Source: an uncultured bacterium
GTDB taxonomy: Bacteria > Patescibacteriota > Minisyncoccia > Phycocordibacterales > DATDWN01
Direction: 5' to 3'
DNA length: 40,693 nucleotides
NCBI GenBank assembly: GCA_903861205.1
Contig: CAIOTC010000022.1
Span: forward strand, 66,025-106,717
Below, piece by piece: positions 2,603 through 38,929 of this stretch. The notes beneath the pieces are model-generated. The model was not told the DNA's origin and did not search any database. It was given only the letters and a program-made list of their open reading frames with translations. The stretch's first letter is position 1; every line of letters begins with the position of its first letter. The position numbers were made by a program, and so were the translations under genes.

Positions 2603-3571
2603 ATGCAAAAATTCAGTAAAATTTTTATAAAAATAACAATCGCACTAACATTGATGTTCGCTGTTTTTAGTTTTGCTTATGCCCTTGATGACTACACTGT
2701 TTTAACACCTTTGCCGGGAACAACAAGTTGTCCGGATGGATCAACACCAACCGCAGTTACAATAAACCAAACAACTGGCAAAGTTGAAGGTGGATGTCAA
2801 ACAACATTTCAAAAATATCTACCAGCGTTTTTCAACCTAACCATCGGCATAGCGGCTGTTTTGGCTTTCATTATGATTACGTGGGGAGGAATAGAATACA
2901 TGACCACTGACGCCATATTCGGCAAATCCAGTGGTAAGGAAAGAATCACAAACGCCATTTGGGGACTTCTTCTCGTTATCGCCTCGTGGGTTATTTTGAA
3001 CACCATCAATCCAAATCTTTTGAATTTTTCGTTGATTTTGGAAACACCTAAAACGCAGGGACAATCTGCCGCTGATTTGGCGGTAATTCTCGGTGGTGAT
3101 TTATCTGCGGGAACAGGAAAAATATTGCCCGGATACACGTTGACTGATGCTCAAGTCAAAACTAATACAGCTATGATAAACGATTTAAAAAATAATTATG
3201 GAATCAATGTTAACGCCGGACCTTGTACAAATGGAGAAACCAGTGGTTGCACCGATTTGGTTGGTATGCCGGCATCAACATATGACGGTCTTAAAGCTCT
3301 TCGCACTGCCTGCGGCGCCATATGCGGTATAATGATATCAGGAGGAACAGAGGGTGGTCACGCTTCGCATGGTCCAAATCAGCCCCCGATAGATCTAAGA
3401 CCTGATTTTAATCCAATTGGGTTGGACGGCTACATACTTGCGCATCAGATTAGCGCCCCGCAAGTTATCCCAGGAGTTGGAACTGTTTATACAGTTAAAG
3501 TTGGTGATATAAATTCCACTTTCTTGAGAGAAGGGGATCATTGGCATGTGGTATTTGGAACAAAACCATAA
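2603..3571 (+). CDS. CPR-type (VirB2/TrbC-like) pilin domain fused to a putative zinc peptidase (M15/LAS-like) domain
   Basis: Two TM helices with GG..YMT..GK..I.NAIWGLLL....VILNTINP pilin pattern; C-terminal GGTEGGHASH..IDLR..EGDHWHV. Confidence 0.6.
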   Translation: MQKFSKIFIKITIALTLMFAVFSFAYALDDYTVLTPLPGTTSCPDGSTPTAVTINQTTGKVEGGCQTTFQKYLPAFFNLTIGIAAVLAFIMITWGGIEYMTTDAIFGKSSGKERITNAIWGLLLVIASWVILNTINPNLLNFSLILETPKTQGQSAADLAVILGGDLSAGTGKILPGYTLTDAQVKTNTAMINDLKNNYGINVNAGPCTNGETSGCTDLVGMPASTYDGLKALRTACGAICGIMISGGTEGGHASHGPNQPPIDLRPDFNPIGLDGYILAHQISAPQVIPGVGTVYTVKVGDINSTFLREGDHWHVVFGTKP

Positions 3572-3576
3572 ATAAT

Positions 3577-4797
3577 ATGTCTCGAAAAATTTTCATTATT
3601 ATAGCAATCGTTCTGGTCATCTTTATTTTTGCGCTGGTCGCTTATTATTTCCTGGCAGTTTCAAATGGTAACAATCCGGCGGGTGATATGCTTGGCTTCA
3701 AACAATTCTTTCCGTTTGGCGGCACAGCACCAGTGAGCACAACTACACCAGCGAACAACGCAACATCGACCCAGCCTATCGTGCCAGCCCAAAATTATAT
3801 TCAAAAACTACGCAAAATATGGGCTGAACCGGTTGCCGGCGCGGGGCTCTTGGATGTTAAAGCCGGCACAGTCGTCCGCCATGTTGAGGTGGCCACCGGA
3901 CATATTTACGAAACCGAACTTTTTTCGCCAGTCCAGAATCGCATTTCCAACACCACCATGCCACTCGTCTACAACGCCGTCTGGGGCAACAAAAACAAAT
4001 CTTTCATCGCGCAATATTTGGCTGACGACAACGAGACTATCAACACATATGTCCTGTCTGTCAAAGACACGGCCACCAGCACCCAAAATCCCGTCTCTGG
4101 TTATGTTTTGGCCAACGACATCGAACAAACTTCGGTTCTCGGCAACACCATGTTCTATTTGGAGCAAACTAGCGCAGGGACGCAAGGATTTATTTCGGGC
4201 CTAGATGGCTTGAAACGAAAGCAAATTTGGAATTCACCGCTCAAAGAACTCTTACCACAATTGGTGAGCGACACCACCGTCACCCTGACCACCAAACCGC
4301 ACCAAAACGTTCCGGGATTTATGTATTCGGTCAGCGCCAACACTGGCGCAGTCAAAAAAATCCTCGGCAACATCGGCGGATTGTCCGCTTTGATGTCGCC
4401 TGACGCTTCCAAAGTTTTGTATTCATCACAAAATTTTGACTCACAAATGTTTTTGTACAGCACCAAAGATAGGACTTCAAAAAATCTGACACCGGCCACT
4501 TTCCCGGAGAAATGCGTTTGGAGCAAAAAAGACGCTAACATTGTTTATTGCGCCGTGCCACGAGAATATTTGGACGGAAGCAGTTTGGATTCGTGGTATA
4601 TGGGAATGATTTCTTTCACCGACGACATTTGGAAATATGATTTGAAACAAAACACTTCAAGTATTGTTGGCAACCTGATGAACGAAAGTGGGGAAGCGAT
4701 TGACGCAATCAAACCACTCCTCTCCGACAGTGAACAATACTTTGTATTCATCAACAAACGCGATGGCTCTCTCTGGAGCTTGGATTTAAGTAAATAA
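3577..4797 (+). CDS. Membrane-anchored beta-propeller-like protein
   Basis: N-terminal TM helix, T/P-rich linker, SPDASKVLYS and DGSLWSLDL blade-like motifs. Confidence 0.65.
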   Translation: MSRKIFIIIAIVLVIFIFALVAYYFLAVSNGNNPAGDMLGFKQFFPFGGTAPVSTTTPANNATSTQPIVPAQNYIQKLRKIWAEPVAGAGLLDVKAGTVVRHVEVATGHIYETELFSPVQNRISNTTMPLVYNAVWGNKNKSFIAQYLADDNETINTYVLSVKDTATSTQNPVSGYVLANDIEQTSVLGNTMFYLEQTSAGTQGFISGLDGLKRKQIWNSPLKELLPQLVSDTTVTLTTKPHQNVPGFMYSVSANTGAVKKILGNIGGLSALMSPDASKVLYSSQNFDSQMFLYSTKDRTSKNLTPATFPEKCVWSKKDANIVYCAVPREYLDGSSLDSWYMGMISFTDDIWKYDLKQNTSSIVGNLMNESGEAIDAIKPLLSDSEQYFVFINKRDGSLWSLDLSK

Positions 4798-24951: not shown

Positions 24952-25428
24952 ATGAAAAAGAAGGAAATTTTTGTTTTGCTTCACAATATTCGCAGCACAC
25001 ACAATGTCGGTTCGATTTTCCGGACGGCCGACGCAGCCGGCGCCGGCAAAATATTTTTGTCCGGCTACACGCCGACGCCCTTGGACAAATTCGGCCGGCC
25101 GCGGAAAGACATCGCCAAAGTTTCTCTTGGTGCTGAAAAAACTTTGGATTGGGAATACGCCAAAAATGCGAAAAAAATAATCGAGAAGTTGAAGAAAGAA
25201 AAATTTCAAATCGTTGCGCTGGAGCAGTCGCAAAATTCCGTCGATTACAAAAAAGTGAAAATAAAATTTCCGGTTCTGTTCGTTGTCGGCAACGAAGTCG
25301 GCGGAATTGAAAAAAATATTTTATCACTATGTGACACTGTGGCCGAAATTCCGATGCACGGCAAAAAAGAATCACTCAACGTCTCGGTCGCGTTCGGCGT
25401 TGGAATTTTTCGAATGTTAAATATTTAA
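24952..25428 (+). CDS. TrmH/SpoU family RNA methyltransferase
   Basis: HNVGSIFRTADA, VGNEVGG, ESLNVSVAFG. Confidence 0.92.
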   Translation: MKKKEIFVLLHNIRSTHNVGSIFRTADAAGAGKIFLSGYTPTPLDKFGRPRKDIAKVSLGAEKTLDWEYAKNAKKIIEKLKKEKFQIVALEQSQNSVDYKKVKIKFPVLFVVGNEVGGIEKNILSLCDTVAEIPMHGKKESLNVSVAFGVGIFRMLNI

Positions 25429-26315
25429 TATTTTATTTCATCCACCACCTTCCCATCATTGTCGTAAAGAATAATATCCTCGCGTCTGGTTTTCCAGATC
25501 GGTGAGCTACGCTTCAAATATATTCGCCAATCTTTCCCATAAAAATTTTTGTCGTCTTTGTGACCGCTGACGCAGGCCGAGTAATTCATTTTGTCCACCA
25601 GAAATTTTTTGCATTCATAACCCCAGCTATTTGGCAAATTGTTTGTCTGTGTTTTGCAGGCTGGATATGAGTCGATGTAGTCGAAGCAATCGTCGTTGGA
25701 TGTGATTTTTGGTATTGACGACAAATCTTCGTTTCGCGGCAATGGACAGCTGGTCGAAATGTACGGCACGAACGTCTGAAATTTCGAAAAATATCCGGAG
25801 CATTCGTTTACTCTGAAACTGTAACCGGTGGGGGATGTTCCGGTGATGACATAAACCGTGTCTCCGGGCGACAGGACGACTGTGTTCTCGAGATTTGTTT
25901 GTCCGCTGAAATATAGAAGCGTGCCTGTCGGTACGGAAACGGTTTCGCCGCTCGGCACGCTGTGGAGAGTCCAGCCGGTTATCGGCACGGTGGTGGTGGC
26001 CGACGACGACATATATAGAACGACATATTCGCTGCCGGCGTTGCTCGAACGGTTGACGTACTGAAGTTTGACGACACCTTTATATTTGGAATCGTTCTGG
26101 GCGGCAATTTGTTTTTCCAAATCTTTCACTTGATTTTGGGCGGTCTGAATTTGGTTTTGAATGTCGGCTTGTTTTTGCGCCTGCGATTCGGATTGGGTTT
26201 GCGCCGGAGTCGAAAAAATTCCGCCGGAATTTTTTGTCATCTTTCCTCCGCCGAAAATAGCGATGGCGACGATGACGAGTAAAACTATAATTCCGATTGA
26301 AAAATCATCTTTCAT
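25425..26315 (-). CDS. Membrane-anchored protein with coiled coil and lamin-tail-like domain
   Basis: EYVVL..ITGWTL..LSPGDTVYVITG..IW...DIILYDNDGKVVD. Confidence 0.6.
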   Translation of the reverse strand: MKDDFSIGIIVLLVIVAIAIFGGGKMTKNSGGIFSTPAQTQSESQAQKQADIQNQIQTAQNQVKDLEKQIAAQNDSKYKGVVKLQYVNRSSNAGSEYVVLYMSSSATTTVPITGWTLHSVPSGETVSVPTGTLLYFSGQTNLENTVVLSPGDTVYVITGTSPTGYSFRVNECSGYFSKFQTFVPYISTSCPLPRNEDLSSIPKITSNDDCFDYIDSYPACKTQTNNLPNSWGYECKKFLVDKMNYSACVSGHKDDKNFYGKDWRIYLKRSSPIWKTRREDIILYDNDGKVVDEIKY

Positions 26316-27771: not shown

Positions 27772-27800
27772 TTGACAAACTATTTGGTAGGGTGTATAAT
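27772..27800 (+). promoter_or_regulatory. Perfect consensus sigma70 promoter of the DGR target gene
   Basis: TTGACA-N17-TATAAT. Confidence 0.8.
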
Positions 27801-27968
27801 ATAGGGGTAATTATAAAAAGTTCTTTGATACGAAATTGCGAATTTGCCACAGAGAAAAGTCTCAAAATGATTTAAATTTTGATATTTCTCGCTGTGGCAA
27901 AACGAAAGCGAGCCAAATACAACAGCAAAGCGACTCTGTTTGGAAAACAATGTCGCAAGGAGACAACC

Positions 27969-28691
27969 ATGAGCGATTTAATGCTCGATGTTGACCAGGC
28001 CGGTGAGTTGAAGGCTGCGTTTCGGCGTGGCGATTGGACCAACGCGGAAATCAAACGCGCTTGTGAAGGAAACTTCCTAGCGCAAGTGCGCAAGGTTTTG
28101 CTGGGTCAAGCGCAAATTGTCGATGTGGTGAAAAAGGTCACGGAAGTTGTGAAAGCGGTCAAAAAAGTCCTGACCCCATTCATCACCATCACAACCGGCG
28201 GAACGACTACCGATCAGCTTGTCGTAGACATCAAAGCGAACAAGAACGAGAACGGAGTTGCGGACGAAGTTTCGGACTACGCCAAAAGCATGATGACAAA
28301 CAAGGCGTTCACCATCTCGAAAGAGGTGGGGACTGCCGATTTGGTCGCGCTGACTATCGCCGAGCTTGGCTTCGCCTCGAGCCCGCGCACGGACGAGTTT
28401 ATGACCGCCGAGTTCTGTGCCAAATGGAGCGCGGAAAATCTCGACGGCATGGTCATCGAACTCTGTCAGCCAGAGGATGGTCCTCAACTGCGCAAGCAGT
28501 GGAAAGATCAGCCGAAAGGCATGGCGGTTTGGTTGGCCATGAAGCGTATTTCTGATTCCGGCGGCGTTCCGCGCGTTTGGCGCGTTGAGTGCCTCTCCGA
28601 CGGTCCTCGGTGGCTGTCTGGCATTTGGGCCCGCCCCGGCCGTCGCTGGGTTCTCGGCGATCGGGTCGTCTTTCGTTTCCGCAAGATTTGA
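27969..28691 (+). CDS. DGR target (variable) protein with C-terminal VR, probably CLec-like fold
   Basis: AAGGAG RBS, ATG 27969; the VR encodes almost all of the last ~46 codons; no signal peptide. Confidence 0.9.
   Translation: MSDLMLDVDQAGELKAAFRRGDWTNAEIKRACEGNFLAQVRKVLLGQAQIVDVVKKVTEVVKAVKKVLTPFITITTGGTTTDQLVVDIKANKNENGVADEVSDYAKSMMTNKAFTISKEVGTADLVALTIAELGFASSPRTDEFMTAEFCAKWSAENLDGMVIELCQPEDGPQLRKQWKDQPKGMAVWLAMKRISDSGGVPRVWRVECLSDGPRWLSGIWARPGRRWVLGDRVVFRFRKI
28550..28684 (+). repeat. DGR variable repeat (VR)
   Basis: 135-bp ungapped match to 29036-29170; 22 of 23 mismatches are at TR adenines. Confidence 0.97.
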
Positions 28692-28747
28692 ACTTTGTCA
28701 CTGGGTCGCTCTGCTTCGCACTGTGATCCTCCGATCTTCGTTCTTCC

Positions 28748-28773
28748 GTCCCGCACTTCGGTGCGGGACTTTT
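28748..28773 (+). terminator. Post-VR hairpin (homing element and/or terminator)
   Basis: gtcccgcac-ttcg-gtgcgggac followed by tttt. Confidence 0.7.
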
Positions 28774-29035
28774 CTATATTATAAAAATAAGTTAAGATGA
28801 AAGCGGTAGTAGGCAAATCTGCCGGCGACAAAATTTCCGGTGGCCGAATCCAGTATCCATGCATCGAGAGTGTCGGCGAGTTACTTTTCCGGCATAGTGA
28901 TGTGTGAGATTTTGAAAAAATGAAGATACTTGGCGCGCTGTATTGAGTGATTTTGATCACGCATAAAATTCAACTCCGAGAGTATTAAAATTTCAAGGAG
29001 TGGTGTATAGGATGATGCGGCGCGCGTTAAACTTG

Positions 29036-29170
29036 TTCTGATTCCGACGGCAATCCGAACGTTTGGAACGTCGAGTGCAACTCCGACGGTCATCGGTGGC
29101 TGAATGGCAATTGGGCCAACCCCGACAATCGCTGGAATCTCGGCAATCGGATCGTCTTTCGTTTCCGCAA
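29036..29170 (+). ncRNA. DGR template repeat (TR)
   Basis: Ten AAY triplets in the target frame, 29 adenines, non-coding context. Confidence 0.97.
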
Positions 29171-29200
29171 ATCTCCTCATTTCCTCGCGAGACACATAAT

Positions 29201-29548
29201 TTATCTTGCGAGGTTTTGTTTTTCAACTTGACCGTACCAACCACCTATCATTTTGCCGATGTTATTGAGTTTTTCGGAAATCTCGGCGTATTGTTTTAAT
29301 TCCAAAAGATTCATCTCCCATGCGATGTGAATGAATACTTTTATAATATCCACTTTAGCTATGGATTTTTTCAAATAAGGAAGCTTGTCGGTTTTTTGCA
29401 AAAATCCAGCGATGGATAAATTTTCAATTATTTCCACAAACAAGTTGTCTATTTTCAAACCGATGGAGTATCGCAGTGGTTTTGGAAATTTTAAAAATAA
29501 TTTATTCCACTTGATATACAAATCTTTAATATGAACAATAACTGGCAA
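29201..29548 (-). CDS. avd: Accessory variability determinant (Avd-like four-helix bundle); start uncertain
   Basis: FPKPLRYSIGLKI..IGKMIGGW signature; lies between TR and RT. Confidence 0.88.
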   Translation of the reverse strand: MPVIVHIKDLYIKWNKLFLKFPKPLRYSIGLKIDNLFVEIIENLSIAGFLQKTDKLPYLKKSIAKVDIIKVFIHIAWEMNLLELKQYAEISEKLNNIGKMIGGWYGQVEKQNLAR

Positions 29549-29557
29549 AAAGGATGC

Positions 29558-29566
29558 GGGGGGGGG
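29558..29566. repeat. G9 homopolymer between the divergent avd and RT starts
   Basis: Nine consecutive G in an otherwise AT-rich region. Confidence 0.9.
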
Positions 29567-29579
29567 TCTTTGTAGTCAT

Positions 29580-30605
29580 TTGATTAAAAAATTTAATATT
29601 GTCTACGACGATATCATATCTACAGAAAATTTACTATTGGCGTGGAAAGAGTTTTTGAATGGCAAGCGTAAAAGGAAAGATGTGCGAACCTTTGAAATAA
29701 AATTGGCTGATAATATTTTTGATTTGCGTGATTCTCTCAAGTTTGGCACCTACAAACACGGATCATACCTTGCTTTTACGGTTCACGATCCGAAAAGGAG
29801 AAATATACATAAAGCAAGCGTCAGAGACAGGTTACTTCACCGGGCAATTTATAGAAAGCTTTATCCACCGTATGACAAGATTTTTATTGCTGATTCTTAT
29901 TCGTGTCGTGACAACAAAGGAATTCACAAGGCTCTTGGTCGTTTCAAAAAATTTTATTGGAAAGTGAGCAAAAATAACAGACGGACGGCATGGGTTTTAA
30001 AATGCGATATCAGAAAATTTTTTGATTCTATTGACCACCAAATACTGGTATCAATTTTGTCCAAAAAAATAGCAGACCAAAATATTTTGTTACTTCTGGA
30101 AAAAATTATCGCAAGTTTTGAAAAAACTTCTGGCAGAGGAATACCACTTGGTAATTTAACTTCTCAACTGTTTGCTAATATTTATATGCACGAATTTGAT
30201 CAGTTTGTAAAACAAACGCTTAAAATTAAATATTACATCCGCTACGCCGATGATTTTGTTTTTCTGTCGCAAAGCAAACCGGAACTGGAAAATTTTTTGC
30301 CGAAAATCAAAAAATTTCTGGAAAACGAGCTGGAGCTCGACCTGCATCCGAACAAAGTTTTCATCAAAACCTTTTCTTCCGGGGTTGATTTTCTCGGCTG
30401 GGTCAATTTTCCACACCACAGGGTTTTGCGGACAGTGACAAAAAGAAGAATGTTGAAAAAGTTGGCTAAACCGAGCAATGGCTCGTTCGCCCGATCCGCC
30501 AAAGGTGGATTTAGGGAAAATAATACGAAACCTGAAACAATCCAGTCGTATCTCGGATTGTTGGGTCACGGGAATACATATAAGATTCAAAATTTGATTT
30601 TATAA
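29580..30605 (+). CDS. DGR reverse transcriptase; start uncertain
   Basis: PKRRNI, RDRLLHRAI, LKCDIRKFFDSIDH, GIPLGNLTSQLFAN (GxxxSQ), RYADD, GVDFLG. Confidence 0.95.
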   Translation: MIKKFNIVYDDIISTENLLLAWKEFLNGKRKRKDVRTFEIKLADNIFDLRDSLKFGTYKHGSYLAFTVHDPKRRNIHKASVRDRLLHRAIYRKLYPPYDKIFIADSYSCRDNKGIHKALGRFKKFYWKVSKNNRRTAWVLKCDIRKFFDSIDHQILVSILSKKIADQNILLLLEKIIASFEKTSGRGIPLGNLTSQLFANIYMHEFDQFVKQTLKIKYYIRYADDFVFLSQSKPELENFLPKIKKFLENELELDLHPNKVFIKTFSSGVDFLGWVNFPHHRVLRTVTKRRMLKKLAKPSNGSFARSAKGGFRENNTKPETIQSYLGLLGHGNTYKIQNLIL

Positions 30606-32956: not shown

Positions 32957-33442
32957 TTATTTTTCAACAACATTTTTTATCATGCTCTTTTCAAGATAAT
33001 GTTCTTCACAATGACAATTTGGACAAATAAGTTCCAAATTATTAAGCTCACTATGGTTTCTGTCCCTATCTTTGTGGTGAACTTGTAATATTTCGTACTT
33101 GTTGTAACCGCATCTCTCACATTTTTTACCTCTAATTTCCATCAATCTTATTTTTAAGCCAAGCTGATATACCGCTTTATCCCTTGGTCTTCCAATTTTA
33201 TATTTAATTCCCGCTCTATGTGTATTTGAGCATGCTCTACTGCATGTTTTTTTATTTAAACCTGCCATTATTGGTTTTCCACATACAATACAAGGAGTCT
33301 CTACTCTATTGTGTATACCGTAACAAGCTAAACTACAAAAAACATTCCCTCCATTCATTTTTATTTGTGAGGGTCTTTTATAAATTGGCTTAGCACAAAC
33401 CTTACATTTAGTGTTCGGGTTTCTTTTGTATGAGAATTCCAC
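32957..33442 (-). CDS. HNH endonuclease with N-terminal Cys-rich zinc-binding repeats
   Basis: CKVC..FCSLAC, CIVC..TCSRAC, CERC..LQVHHKDRDRNH...NLELICPNCH..EH. Confidence 0.85.
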   Translation of the reverse strand: MEFSYKRNPNTKCKVCAKPIYKRPSQIKMNGGNVFCSLACYGIHNRVETPCIVCGKPIMAGLNKKTCSRACSNTHRAGIKYKIGRPRDKAVYQLGLKIRLMEIRGKKCERCGYNKYEILQVHHKDRDRNHSELNNLELICPNCHCEEHYLEKSMIKNVVEK

Positions 33443-38287: not shown

Positions 38288-38929
38288 TTATGGGTACAAT
38301 GGACTTTCTTCAACAACTTTGCTTTTGATCAGATTAAAATAACTTTCATCTCCGTGCTCTCGTCTTCTAAATAAGGACCAGCAGACCATATCCACAACTT
38401 GCAAACATTTTTCTTGTTGCGGGGTTTTGATTTCAACCGAGATTTTTATTTTATGCTTTCCTGTGACTTGATTGGACAAATATCCGCAGAAATTTTCGTT
38501 TAAAAATTTATTTGTTTCGCGACGAGAGGCGACCATGACAATAGATTCGTTGGTTGGAATTAATTTTTTCGTATAGACACGATCAAGTAATATGTTCGCC
38601 ACATAATTGTAAAGTACATGCTTTTCGTTTTGCAGTTTTGTGTAGACTTTGGACTTGTTCAGATAAATTGAAATTATTGACACATCCTTTTCATTCAATG
38701 AAGTAAGAAGTTTTTGTCTGGTGACGGGCTTCTCTTTGAAGGCGTGAATTACACCGCTGTGGTTTTTAACTTCCATTTTGCTGAATTTCGCGAACAGCTT
38801 TTTGATTATTTTTTCAATCGGTTTCTTGTCTTTGACAAAAAGAAAAGCAATCACAAAATATTTCGAAGTTTTCTTCTTTTTGAAATTGAAACCCAGATCG
38901 CCGCTTTCATCCATAAATATGTAGGCCAT
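38288..38929 (-). CDS. DUF3800 domain protein
   Basis: YIFMDESGDLG N-terminus and CLQVVDMVCW C-terminal motif. Confidence 0.8.
   Translation of the reverse strand: MAYIFMDESGDLGFNFKKKKTSKYFVIAFLFVKDKKPIEKIIKKLFAKFSKMEVKNHSGVIHAFKEKPVTRQKLLTSLNEKDVSIISIYLNKSKVYTKLQNEKHVLYNYVANILLDRVYTKKLIPTNESIVMVASRRETNKFLNENFCGYLSNQVTGKHKIKISVEIKTPQQEKCLQVVDMVCWSLFRRREHGDESYFNLIKSKVVEESPLYP

What the first reader, a model, noticed from the sequence alone, without database searches (positions are those of the whole stretch)
27772..30605. Complete chromosomal diversity-generating retroelement with a heavily mutagenised VR
Seen: VR 28550-28684 and TR 29036-29170 align without gaps over 135 bp. Of 23 mismatches, 22 are TR-A to N; the exception is a synonymous C-to-T at 28586/29072. 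22 of the 29 TR adenines are changed. The 3' 19 nt (tcgtctttcgtttccgcaa) are identical and then diverge, as expected at IMH/IMH*. Avd and an RT with GNLTSQ and YADD motifs are adjacent. Established: this is DGR mutagenic retrohoming, and DGRs are common in CPR. Ten AAY codons alone allow up to 15^10 (about 6e11) protein variants. Inference: the element sits between ruvA and rpsT with no integrase or phage genes, so it looks domesticated and diversifies a cytoplasmic 240-aa protein of unknown function.
Basis: partly seen in the sequence, partly recalled or inferred. Interest (0 to 1): 0.85.

Follow-up and report, generated by a model that had tools for sequence, protein, structure and literature searches.

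The report
Typical CPR diversity-generating retroelement
This is a complete, ordinary diversity-generating retroelement of an ultra-small (CPR) bacterium that rewrites the tip of one small lectin-fold protein, and a slippery G run between its two enzyme genes may switch it on and off.

Summary
VR 28550-28684 and TR 29036-29170 align without gaps, and 22 of 23 mismatches fall on TR adenines (P 3.7e-14). All 10 AAY codons are recoded. The RT carries the DGR signature LGNLTSQ and its best solved match is Bordetella phage bRT. Avd lies on the minus strand between TR and RT. This is the published "B3" TR-(avd)-RT layout, said to make up 90% of CPR DGRs. The target has no TM segment or Pfam domain, as reported for CPR targets, and its modelled C-terminal domain resembles CLec/FGE folds. 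The main finding is therefore a new member of a known kind.

Two further results came from 60-odd relatives.
- The TR sits in its own transcription unit. A conserved -10 box is followed by a covarying structured leader (37 of 43 pairs compensatory; one model hit per locus in 29 further loci), then the TR, a stem-loop and a T-run.
- The G9 at 29558-29566 is the only G/C run of 8 or more in the 884-kb genome, which shows no MutS/MutL match. G6-13 or (GA)n tracts occupy the same place in most relatives, and 20 of 43 avd genes lack an in-frame start without a one-unit change.

One low-depth contig reads G10. A phase-variable switch is plausible but unproven.

The parts
27772..27800 (+). Promoter-like site for the target gene (TTGACA-17-TATAAT)
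   Evidence: 12 of 12 consensus matches. This is a consensus match only.
27843..27901 (+). Long hairpin in the roughly 170-nt leader of the target gene
   Evidence: Fold of 27806-27975 gives MFE -41.2 kcal/mol and z -3.0. Function unknown.
27969..28691 (+). Target (variable-protein) gene, 240 aa. It has an N-terminal three-helix part and a C-terminal CLec/FGE-like domain (residues about 65-240).
   Evidence: ORF. An AAGGAG motif lies 7 nt before the ATG. AF2 model pLDDT is 91. VIA-align rank 1 is TvpA 2y3c_A at Z 5.7. The family has 1345 relatives at E<=1e-3 and no Pfam match.
28550..28684 (+). Variable repeat (VR); it ends 4 nt before the stop codon
28666..28684 (+). IMH-like 3' end of VR, identical to TR 29152-29170
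   Evidence: 19 identical nt, then divergence. IMH function is inferred by analogy.
28748..28769 (+). GC-rich hairpin (9 bp, UUCG loop) plus T-run, 64 nt after VR. It is a terminator of the target gene and possibly the DGR inverted repeat.
28793..28798 (+). -10 box (TAAGAT) of the TR-RNA promoter
   Evidence: T1, A2 and T6 of the box are invariant in 19 of 19 aligned loci; the consensus is TGATATAAT. The transcription start is inferred.
28894..29033 (+). Conserved structured domain of the TR-RNA leader: a 12-bp outer helix enclosing two hairpins. It directly abuts the TR.
   Evidence: Covariation. Model R1 scores 106.6 bits here, the only hit in the 40.7-kb window. There is a sub-threshold Rfam RT-16 match at 28934-29024 (31.1 bits, cut-off 50).
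29036..29170 (+). Template repeat (TR)
29183..29223 (+). 10-bp stem-loop (29183-29192 with 29204-29213) followed by TTTTGTTTTT. It overlaps the 3' end of avd.
   Evidence: z -3.19. The same hairpin plus T-run lies 10-25 nt after the TR in 21 of 21 loci (read by eye). It fits the 'Avd-binding stem-loop just downstream of TR' of Handa et al..
29201..29548 (-). avd (accessory variability determinant), 115 aa from the TTG
   Evidence: Pfam bAvd 3.2e-11. NCBIfam DivGenRetAVD scores 65.4 bits, below its cut-off of 80. PHROG 3206 E 6.9e-18.
29558..29566 (.). G9 (C9 on the avd strand) simple-sequence tract. It lies 9 nt upstream of the avd TTG and 13 nt upstream of the RT TTG.
   Evidence: It is the only G/C run of 8 or more in the 883,597-bp genome. 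One contig of run X2 reads G10. Homologous tracts occur in relatives.
29554..29556 (+). ATG that joins the RT frame only if the tract is G10
   Evidence: Frame arithmetic.
29577..29579 (-). ATG on the avd strand that reads into the C tract (MTTKTPP...). It is in frame with avd only at C8 or C11.
29580..30605 (+). DGR reverse transcriptase, 341 aa from the TTG
   Evidence: RVT_1 1.5e-25. bRT 8ub7 E 1.2e-39. LGNLTSQ and YADD are present. PHROG 1423 E 2.7e-108.

Best explanation
This is a chromosomal diversity-generating retroelement of the CPR-typical kind: architecture B3, target(VR) - TR - avd reversed - RT.

Shown:
- The TR/VR pair carries adenine-specific recoding.
- The RT is of DGR type, and an Avd gene and a single VR are present.
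- The target has a modelled lectin-like C-terminal domain whose last 45 residues are the VR.

Inferred from the Bordetella phage paradigm: the TR is transcribed, the RT-Avd complex copies it into cDNA while misreading adenines, and the cDNA replaces the VR. This recodes up to 14 adenine-bearing codons of a soluble binding protein.

Inferred from comparison of relatives: the TR lies in its own RNA of about 420 nt (roughly 28805-29223). That RNA has a conserved -10 box, a structured leader of about 230 nt, the TR, a CU-rich stretch that can pair back to an AG-rich stretch of the leader, and a stem-loop that doubles as a terminator. RT and avd are expressed divergently from the other side.

Avd expression, and in some relatives RT expression, has to pass a hypermutable G/C or GA/TC tract.
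For: TR/VR:
- 22 of 23 mismatches fall on TR adenines, all at codon positions 1-2, and 10 of 10 AAY codons are recoded.
- There is one VR in the genome.

RT and Avd:
- bRT 8ub7 matches at E 1.2e-39 over residues 4-296, against 1.4e-21 for group II LtrA.
- LGNLTSQ matches the signature [I/V/L]GxxxSQ (PMC7826257 section 18).

Same kind in relatives:
- 20 of 21 genome-collection relatives (RT 54-60% identical) have avd on the opposite strand next to the RT.
- 20 of 21 have a TR/VR pair with A-only or nearly A-only mismatches, with VR 283-415 nt upstream of TR.
- B3 is stated to be 90% of the CPR set.

Target:
- The model has pLDDT 91.
- Top VIA-align matches are TvpA Z 5.7, PvdO 5.5, FGE/EgtB 4.4-4.7 and Mtd 4.1.

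TR RNA:
- 43 predicted pairs, 37 with compensatory changes. 92.4% of cells are paired against 38-48% when partners are slid, and 0 of 500 shuffles reach this.
- Model R1 hits exactly one place, on the RT strand, in 29 loci not used to build it.
- A hairpin plus T-run follows the TR in 21 of 21 loci.
Against: - No read-level evidence of current activity. Only assembled contigs of four runs from one study were available, and the contigs of three runs that span the VR are identical to the window.
- NCBIfam Avd scores below its cut-off, and NCBIfam has no DGR RT model; its best RT match is group II at 155 bits against a cut-off of 300.
- Fold matches of the target are middling (Z below 8), and Foldseek gave nothing at E<=1e-3.
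- The 19-nt IMH-like end is not GC-rich, unlike the Bordetella IMH.
- Transcript ends, priming site and promoters are predictions only.
- The upstream/downstream 'Stop duplex' is weakly supported. Own-pair energy is -9.0 against -7.6 kcal/mol for cross-pairs (P 0.013), and several anchors in that script were misplaced.
Confidence: 0.93

Rival explanations
1. The G9 tract (poly-G or (GA)n in relatives) is a contingency locus. Slipped-strand changes of tract length switch Avd, and in the (GA)n group also RT, between in-frame and out-of-frame, so DGR mutagenesis is on in only part of the population. This adds to the DGR reading and does not replace it.
For: Rarity and conservation of the tract:
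- It is the only G/C run of 8 or more in 883,597 bp. Run counts by length are 304 (5), 26 (6), 6 (7), 0 (8) and 1 (9).
- The genome (99.4% complete) has no MutS_V or MutL family match.
- Of 42 non-redundant relatives examined, 36 carry a tract (25 G-type, 11 GA-type), 3 have none, and 3 could not be scored.
- 7 of 8 further same-lineage loci have G8-G10.
- Only 8 such tracts lie in the other roughly 358 kb of those loci.

Position and frames:
- The tract ends 4-35 nt before the first matched avd residue; where the match starts at avd residue 1 the gap is 4-24 nt.
- That first residue is a conserved Leu coded by non-start codons in many loci.
- Across 43 tract-bearing loci, avd has no canonical in-frame start in 20, reads through the tract from an upstream start in 8, and has its own start after the tract in 15.
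- 43 of 43 have an ATG within 48 nt upstream that reads into the tract, against a background of 0.37.
- In 7 loci a single one-unit change puts RT and avd in frame together.

Length variation:
- Sister lineages differ in length: G11/G10, GA8/GA14, G11/G9, G10/G8 (quick tree).
- One X2 contig reads G10 where the window has G9, and X1 contigs break inside the tract.
Against: - The G10 call rests on one contig at depth 4.1 and may be a sequencing error.
- Near-identical records show no length difference. Three records in the metagenome collection (L036, L040, L060), identical in RT to the genome record L012, all read G10 (L036 is L012's own contig), and L050/L056 share one length.
- Frame states match random phase. 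The nearest ATG is in frame 0, 1 or 2 in 8, 20 and 15 loci, which an irrelevant ATG would also give.
- That ATG is the antisense of RT's conserved His codon, or of an RT -10-like box, so its presence may be a by-product.
- In the window itself both genes have TTG starts after the tract, so neither depends on it.
- The related loci are kin, so the statistics overstate the support.
Confidence: 0.4
2. The polypurine tract is a fixed regulatory or structural element and not a switch. Candidates are a purine-rich ribosome-binding leader for RT, a spacer of the divergent promoters, or an H-DNA-forming sequence.
For: - In 22 of 25 poly-G loci the RT has its own start after the tract, in several only 8-9 nt away, which is Shine-Dalgarno spacing.
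- Both tract types are homopurine on the RT strand.
- In L077-L082 the tract lies upstream of an extended -10-like box for RT.
Against: - Lengths of 9-13 G or 16-46 nt of GA far exceed what a ribosome-binding site or spacer needs, and they vary between sister lineages.
- The distance to the RT start varies from 0 to about 65 nt, while the distance to avd is tight.
- It does not explain 20 of 43 avd genes lacking a start codon.
Confidence: 0.3
3. Avd is made by RNA-level or ribosomal slippage on the C run (a polyproline CCC-C context). The tract would then set a constitutively low Avd level whatever the DNA phase.
For: - Random frame distribution of the upstream ATG.
- avd bodies are conserved and intact despite lacking a start.
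- That C runs and proline codons are shift-prone is recalled knowledge and comes from no call.
Against: - It does not readily explain the (TC)n tracts.
- There are no data on RNA or protein.
Confidence: 0.15
4. The element is a now-silent relic. The VR was diversified in the past and is frozen today.
For: - The VR is identical in the contigs of 3 of 4 runs.
- The avd-strand ATG is out of frame at C9 and at C10.
Against: - All three ORFs are intact and the TR-RNA motifs score well (106.6 bits).
- TTG starts exist for both genes.
- Contigs hide minority variants, and all runs come from one study.
Confidence: 0.2

Closest known systems
CPR DGRs of architecture B3, TR-(avd)-RT (Wu et al. 2018, PMC5758913), also DGR clade 2 of Roux et al. 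2021 (PMC8144416)
   Same: The gene order and the reversed avd match. The host is a tiny genome whose relatives are CPR MAGs. The setting is cellular and aquatic (lake water). The target lacks a TM segment or known domain.
   Different: Nothing in the core differs. The structured leader 5' of the TR, the terminator-like stem-loop and the simple-sequence tract at the avd/RT junction are not mentioned in the passages I read. The supplements of these papers and Paul et al. 2017 could not be read.
Bordetella phage BPP-1 DGR (mtd-avd-TR-brt)
   Same: Adenine-specific TR-to-VR differences, AAY-rich TR, VR at the 3' end of a CLec-fold protein, RT with [I/V/L]GxxxSQ, Avd, and a stem-loop just after the TR.
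   Different: The element is chromosomal, not phage-borne. avd is reversed and lies between TR and RT. Only about 50 nt follow the TR before a T-run, against a 140-nt spacer in BPP-1 (that figure is recalled). The large conserved RNA domain lies 5' of the TR. RT identity to phage DGR RTs is 41% or less.
TvpA of Treponema denticola (2y3c) and Mtd (1yu0), DGR variable proteins with CLec/FGE-type folds
   Same: The C-terminal domain 64-240 aligns to TvpA (Z 5.7, 146 residues, rmsd 4.0) and to Mtd (Z 4.1).
   Different: Sequence identity is 8-15% and the Z values are middling. There is no lipoprotein or tail-fibre context. The N-terminal part is a small three-helix module of unknown role.
Rfam RT-16 (RF03019) and RT-10 motifs (Weinberg et al. 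2017, PMC5737381)
   Same: These are RNA motifs found beside RT genes, and RT-10 is the BPP-1 TR-RT spacer. The window's leader gives its only Rfam match to RT-16 over model positions 42-148.
   Different: The score is 31.1 bits against a cut-off of 50. There were 0 hits at gathering threshold in 16 relatives and 0 RT-16 hits at E<=1 in 7 relatives. Membership is not shown, so the leader may be a separate, undescribed motif.
Contingency loci of Neisseria, Campylobacter and Helicobacter: poly-G/C or CT repeats in 5' coding regions (recalled; listing)
   Same: The tract type, length and position at the 5' end of an ORF match. Relatives show a mix of in-frame and out-of-frame states.
   Different: Switching has not been observed here. 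The controlled gene would be part of a mutagenesis machine and not a surface antigen.

Membership tests
Diversity-generating retroelement | TR/VR pair whose differences fall almost only on TR adenines | tested here: met
   22 of 23 mismatches, P 3.7e-14
Diversity-generating retroelement | RT of the DGR clade with the [I/V/L]GxxxSQ motif | tested here: met
   LGNLTSQ is present. The best solved relative is bRT at E 1.2e-39, against 1.4e-21 for group II. No full RT phylogeny with reference clades was built.
Diversity-generating retroelement | VR at the 3' end of a target ORF, in a CLec or Ig fold | tested here: met
   VR ends 4 nt before the stop codon. The fold is TvpA Z 5.7, FGE-type 4.4-5.5 and Mtd 4.1, which is middling. 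Foldseek found only weak C-type lectin rows.
Diversity-generating retroelement | Avd accessory protein | tested here: met
   Pfam bAvd 44.1 bits against 40. PHROG 3206 E 6.9e-18. NCBIfam 65.4 bits is below its cut-off of 80.
Diversity-generating retroelement | IMH/IMH* boundary and an inverted repeat after VR | tested here: inconclusive
   19 identical nt then divergence. A GC-rich hairpin lies 64 nt after VR. Function was not tested and the IMH-like stretch is not GC-rich.
Diversity-generating retroelement | Ongoing mutagenic retrohoming (VR polymorphism at A positions) | not testable with these tools
   Only contigs of 4 runs from one study were available, and the VR is identical in the three that span it.
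Architecture B3 (Wu et al. 2018) | Order TR-(avd)-RT with avd on the reverse strand | tested here: met
   The same holds in 20 of 21 relatives. The definition is in PMC5758913, Figure 5 legend.
Rfam RT-16 (RF03019) | Score at or above the gathering cut-off of 50 bits | tested here: not met
   31.1 bits. There were 0 of 16 relatives at gathering and 0 of 7 at E<=1.
Bordetella-type DGR RNA elements (Handa et al., bioRxiv 10.1101/2023.10.23.563531) | [quoted passage not shown] | tested here: inconclusive
   The stem-loop is present in 21 of 21 loci. The duplex is plausible but weak: -9.0 against -7.6 kcal/mol, P 0.013, with some anchors wrong.
Simple-sequence contingency locus | Long homopolymer or dinucleotide tract in the 5' coding or promoter region | tested here: met
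   G9 lies 9 nt from the avd start and is unique in the genome. Tracts occur in 43 relatives' loci.
Simple-sequence contingency locus | Tract length varies within a population and flips expression | tested here: inconclusive
   One G10 contig at depth 4.1. No differences among near-identical records. No expression data.

The most novel reading that the evidence does not exclude
In CPR DGRs the mutagenesis machinery is itself gated by a contingency locus. A hypermutable poly-G/C or (GA/TC)n tract sits inside the 5' end of avd, and in one clade inside the overlapping 5' ends of both avd and RT. It would switch Avd (and RT) on and off by slippage in genomes that lack mismatch repair. Targeted hypermutation of the lectin-fold protein would then run only in a changing subpopulation. 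Alongside this, the TR RNA of these elements is a separate small transcript whose main protein-binding structure lies 5' of the template, a permuted form of the Bordetella DGR RNA.
Probability: 0.4. Interest if true: 0.75.

Novelty: new member of a known kind. Interest (0 to 1): 0.45.

Why it matters
The DGR itself adds one more example to a well-catalogued class, so it matters little on its own. The side results could matter more, because how DGR activity is regulated is poorly understood.

- The tract. A conserved slippery tract at the head of avd is unique in a mismatch-repair-less 0.88-Mb genome and is kept across relatives whose RTs are only about 55% identical. It gives a concrete hypothesis for on/off control that existing metagenome reads can test.
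- The RNA. The covarying 5' leader, with its own promoter and terminator, defines the RNA partner of the CPR enzymes. This is what anyone would need to reconstitute a CPR DGR or to compare its priming mechanism with the Bordetella structure.

Tried and rejected
Other identities for the RT and target
- Group II intron, retron or defence RT. These score far lower in the solved-structure search. NCBIfam matches are all far below their cut-offs.
- Remote VRs. There are none; the third genome match of the TR is a 22-nt chance hit at E 1.26.
- Phage origin. The viral-contig scan found no relative, phage DGR RTs are 41% identical or less, and there are no phage families nearby.
- Pfam, NCBIfam and PHROG annotation of the target returned nothing. 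The protein atlas returned only unnamed clusters.

RNA families
- Rfam on relatives gave 0 hits at gathering in 16 loci. At E<=1 in 7 loci it gave only two unrelated weak hits, mir-2831 and T-box.

Reads
- No RNA holder was listed.
- X1 has no contig over 28488-28631. X3 and X4 have none over about 29505-29740. These gaps are not evidence.
- A joint skipping 30024-30144 in one X3 contig, and many loose ends around 29991-30259, come from other organisms' RT genes at 85% likeness. I did not pursue them.

Tract hypotheses
- I first read the tract as a frame switch for RT. That fails in general, because 22 of 25 poly-G loci have an RT start after the tract.
- The 'every OFF locus is one unit from ON' result follows automatically and is not independent support.

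Tree
- The careful RT tree did not finish, so only the quick tree with 5 well-supported branches was used.

Literature
- Paul et al. 2017 is not held.
- Supplements were not consulted. Wu Table S1 and Handa Table S3 may bear on the leader RNA and the tract.
- Two full-text searches for DGR together with phase variation, homopolymer or simple-repeat terms listed 40 papers. Only one holds the DGR term at all, a Campylobacter paper with one mention (listing only).
- What I read of each paper: PMC5758913, PMC7826257, PMC8144416, PMC5737381, PMC11661182 and 10.64898/2026.09.22.753630 as found passages; 10.1101/2023.10.23.563531 as outline, abstract and section 10.

Full report
**Observation**

The region was read and its ORFs listed.
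- VR is 28550-28684 and TR is 29036-29170, 135 bp each, with 23 mismatches.
- 22 mismatches are TR-A to VR-G/C/T (10, 7 and 5). One is C-to-T at 29072/28586.
- 22 of the 29 TR adenines are changed. Identity collapses on both sides of the pair.

Codon analysis adds the following.
- All 29 TR adenines sit at codon positions 1 or 2.
- The TR has 10 AAY codons, all recoded in VR.
- The C-to-T change is synonymous (GTC to GTT).
- The adenine bias has a binomial probability of 3.7e-14.
- The last 19 nt are identical and the sequences then diverge.

The TR has only this one VR in the whole 883,597-bp, 24-contig, 99.4%-complete genome.

**Identity of the parts**

- RT (29580-30605). It matches Pfam RVT_1. 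Its best solved relative is the Bordetella phage bRT, 8ub7, at E 1.2e-39 over residues 4-296, against 1.4e-21 for the best group II RT. It carries LGNLTSQ, the DGR signature [I/V/L]GxxxSQ given in PMC7826257 section 18, and YADD.
- Avd (29201-29548). It lies on the minus strand. It passes Pfam bAvd and matches the PHROG 'Avd protein of DGR'. It scores below the NCBIfam cut-off.
- Target (27969-28691, 240 aa). Neither it nor any of 62 aligned relatives matches a Pfam family at E<=0.01; the best stray match among the members is 0.016. The family is large, with 1345 representatives at E<=1e-3.
- Target fold. An AlphaFold model built on that alignment is confident (pLDDT 91). It shows three N-terminal helices, a poorly modelled linker and an alpha/beta domain over residues 65-240. 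Foldseek gave only weak C-type lectin rows. The Foldseek-independent search ranked the Treponema DGR variable protein TvpA first (Z 5.7, 146 residues). FGE-type folds followed (PvdO, EgtB, the FGE paralogue), with Mtd at Z 4.1. The Z values are middling, but the set of hits is coherent.
- Target location. There is no hydrophobic segment; the best 19-residue Kyte-Doolittle window is 1.24.

**Setting**

- Neighbours are housekeeping genes: PolA, TsaE, DNA pol III delta, a SpoU methylase, Fpg, RuvA, S20, RuvX, PilM and FtsJ, plus eight tRNA genes in the window.
- No integrase or phage family was found. One small HNH ORF lies 2.3 kb downstream.
- A viral-contig scan found no relative, and phage DGR RTs are 41% identical or less.
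- Relatives at 54-63% RT identity are nearly all CPR MAGs or aquatic and groundwater metagenome contigs.
- 16 of 40 other genomes of the same order, including 13 of 24 of the same family, hold related DNA.
- None of the 21 genome-collection relatives or the 9 same-lineage relatives has ruvA or rpsT within the DNA held, up to 4 kb either side.

**Comparison with what is known**

- In 20 of 21 genome-collection relatives avd is reversed next to the RT.
- 20 of 21 have a TR/VR pair with adenine-only or nearly adenine-only mismatches.
- Wu et al. 2018 define this order, TR-(avd)-RT, as architecture B3. [quoted passage not shown]
- Roux et al. 2021 describe a cellular, aquatic, CPR-restricted DGR clade. 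[quoted passage not shown]

**How the TR is expressed (new here, by comparison)**

- Spacing. The 283-415-nt VR-TR interval is conserved in length.
- Promoter. An alignment of the 290 nt before the TR from 19 loci shows a conserved -10 box. The consensus is TGATATAAT, and the window has TAAGAT at 28793-28798, with T1, A2 and T6 invariant.
- Structure. RNAalifold predicts 43 pairs in seven helices, 37 with compensatory changes. 92.4% of cells are paired, against 38-48% when the 3' partners are slid by 1-3 columns. There are 231 double changes against 40-51 in the slid controls, and 0 of 500 shuffles reach the observed values.
- Model. A covariance model of the TR-proximal domain finds exactly one hit, on the RT strand, in 29 loci that were not used to build it. 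It finds one hit in the 40.7-kb window, at 28894-29033. The 26 sources without a hit were mostly truncated upstream or have distant RTs; I did not check them one by one.
- 3' end. After the TR, all 21 loci examined have a hairpin followed by a T-run within about 10-25 nt (read by eye). In the window this is 29183-29213 plus TTTTGTTTTT (z -3.2). It overlaps the end of the convergent avd.
- Relation to published elements. Handa et al. report putative Avd-binding stem-loops 'just downstream of TR' and a duplex between upstream and downstream sequences in 207 of 278 Avd-containing DGRs, including CPR. The hairpin fits the first of these. An AG-rich stretch (28914-28929) and the CU-rich stretch after the TR (29171-29182) fit the second, but only weakly.
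- Rfam. The only match to the leader is a sub-threshold RT-16 hit (31.1 bits against 50). Relatives give none, so I do not file it under RT-16.
- Inference. The TR RNA is a discrete transcript of about 420 nt, and its main structured domain lies 5' of the template.

**The simple-sequence tract (new here, unexplained)**

Between the divergent avd and RT starts lies G9 (29558-29566).

Rarity:
- It is the only G/C run of 8 or more in the genome. Run counts by length are 304 (5), 26 (6), 6 (7), 0 (8) and 1 (9).
- The genome has no match to the MutS_V or MutL families.

Conservation in relatives:
- Of 42 non-redundant relatives examined, 36 carry a tract at the same place, 25 with G6-G13 and 11 with (GA)5-18. 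Three have none and three could not be scored.
- 7 of 8 further same-lineage loci have G8-G10.
- Elsewhere in those loci there are only 8 such tracts in about 358 kb.
- The tract ends 4-35 nt before the first matched avd residue, and 4-24 nt where the match begins at avd residue 1. Its distance to the RT start ranges from 0 to about 65 nt.

Frames on the avd strand:
- The first conserved avd residue is a Leu, coded by TTG, TTA or CTN. That implies translation from further upstream.
- All 43 tract-bearing loci have an ATG within 48 nt upstream that reads into the tract as Pro-Pro-Pro or (Ser-Leu)n. The background for such an ATG is 0.37.
- In the assembled sequences avd has no canonical in-frame start in 20 of 43. 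It reads through the tract in 8 and has its own start after the tract in 15.
- In the 11 GA-type loci RT and avd are jointly startable in 6 and jointly start-less in 4, with one discordant.
- In seven loci one single-unit change puts both genes in frame.
- Tract length differs between sister lineages (quick tree).

The window itself:
- G9 leaves both upstream ATGs out of frame. The RT ATG at 29554 needs G10, and the avd-strand ATG at 29577-29579 needs C8 or C11.
- Both genes also have TTG starts after the tract.

Read-level evidence:
- One contig of run X2 reads G10, and contigs of X1 break inside the tract. Depth is about 4.
- Near-identical records of other loci show no length difference.

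Caveats:
- The frame distribution (8, 20 and 15 for frames 0, 1 and 2) is what chance would give.
- The upstream ATG is partly a by-product of RT's conserved His codon or -10-like box.
- I rate a contingency switch at about 0.4. The rivals are a fixed polypurine regulatory element and RNA-level or ribosomal slippage.
- Two full-text searches listed no paper that links DGRs to such tracts. Paul et al. 2017 and all supplements could not be read.

**Activity**

Only assembled contigs of four lake-water runs from one study were available, and none is RNA. The VR is identical to the window in the three runs whose contigs span it. Current activity is therefore untested.

**Verdict**

The element is a textbook CPR (B3) DGR and a new member of a known kind. 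The added value lies in two family-wide features found on the way. One is an independently transcribed TR RNA with a strongly covarying 5' domain. The other is a conserved hypermutable tract at the head of avd that may gate the system.

Noticed in passing
window 27843-27901 (+): A long, nearly perfect hairpin sits in the roughly 170-nt leader between the consensus promoter (27772-27800) and the target gene. The leader folds with z -3.0. It could be a regulatory element of the target mRNA.
   Followed up: partly
window 27900-29200 versus 29200-30300: The target gene and TR are 50-60% G+C. avd and RT are 30-38%, and the genome is 43%. The split within one cassette is unexplained.
   Followed up: no
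whole genome G000: There is no match to MutS domain V or to the MutL mismatch-repair family in a 99.4%-complete genome. G/C runs of 6 or more are about four times rarer than base composition predicts: 33 observed against 139 expected.
   Followed up: partly
L022:2090-3125 and 3464-3588: This relative has two VRs (2287-2411 and 2951-3072) for one TR. They lie in a tandemly duplicated target region of about 375 bp per copy.
   Followed up: no
L014, L019, L024, L044: DGR RT DNA 93% identical (L014 versus L019; L044 identical to L019; L024 shares their TR-flank sequence) occurs in MAGs labelled Eubacteriales, Woesebacteria and Pseudomonadales. This points to mis-binning or recent transfer. These copies lack the tract.
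   Followed up: no
L025:2273-2281 and L068:1450-1458: Where the RT start lies far from avd, the G9 tract stays next to the avd start, 10 and 22 nt away. The tract therefore goes with avd rather than with RT.
   Followed up: partly
window 38288-38929 (-) and 32957-33442 (-): A DUF3800 protein and a small HNH endonuclease ORF lie among the housekeeping genes. A lamin-tail-domain protein lies at 25425-26315.
   Followed up: no
target residues 1-55 (window 27969-28133): Several family members share only the N-terminal 44-61 residues at 73-82% identity: P0063, P0101, P0130, P0144 and P0147. The three-helix head thus looks like a separate module joined to different lectin-fold tails.
   Followed up: no
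genomes G001, G011, G013, G016: Some same-family genomes hold two or more separate RT-like matches, so multiple DGRs per tiny genome appear common in this lineage.
   Followed up: no
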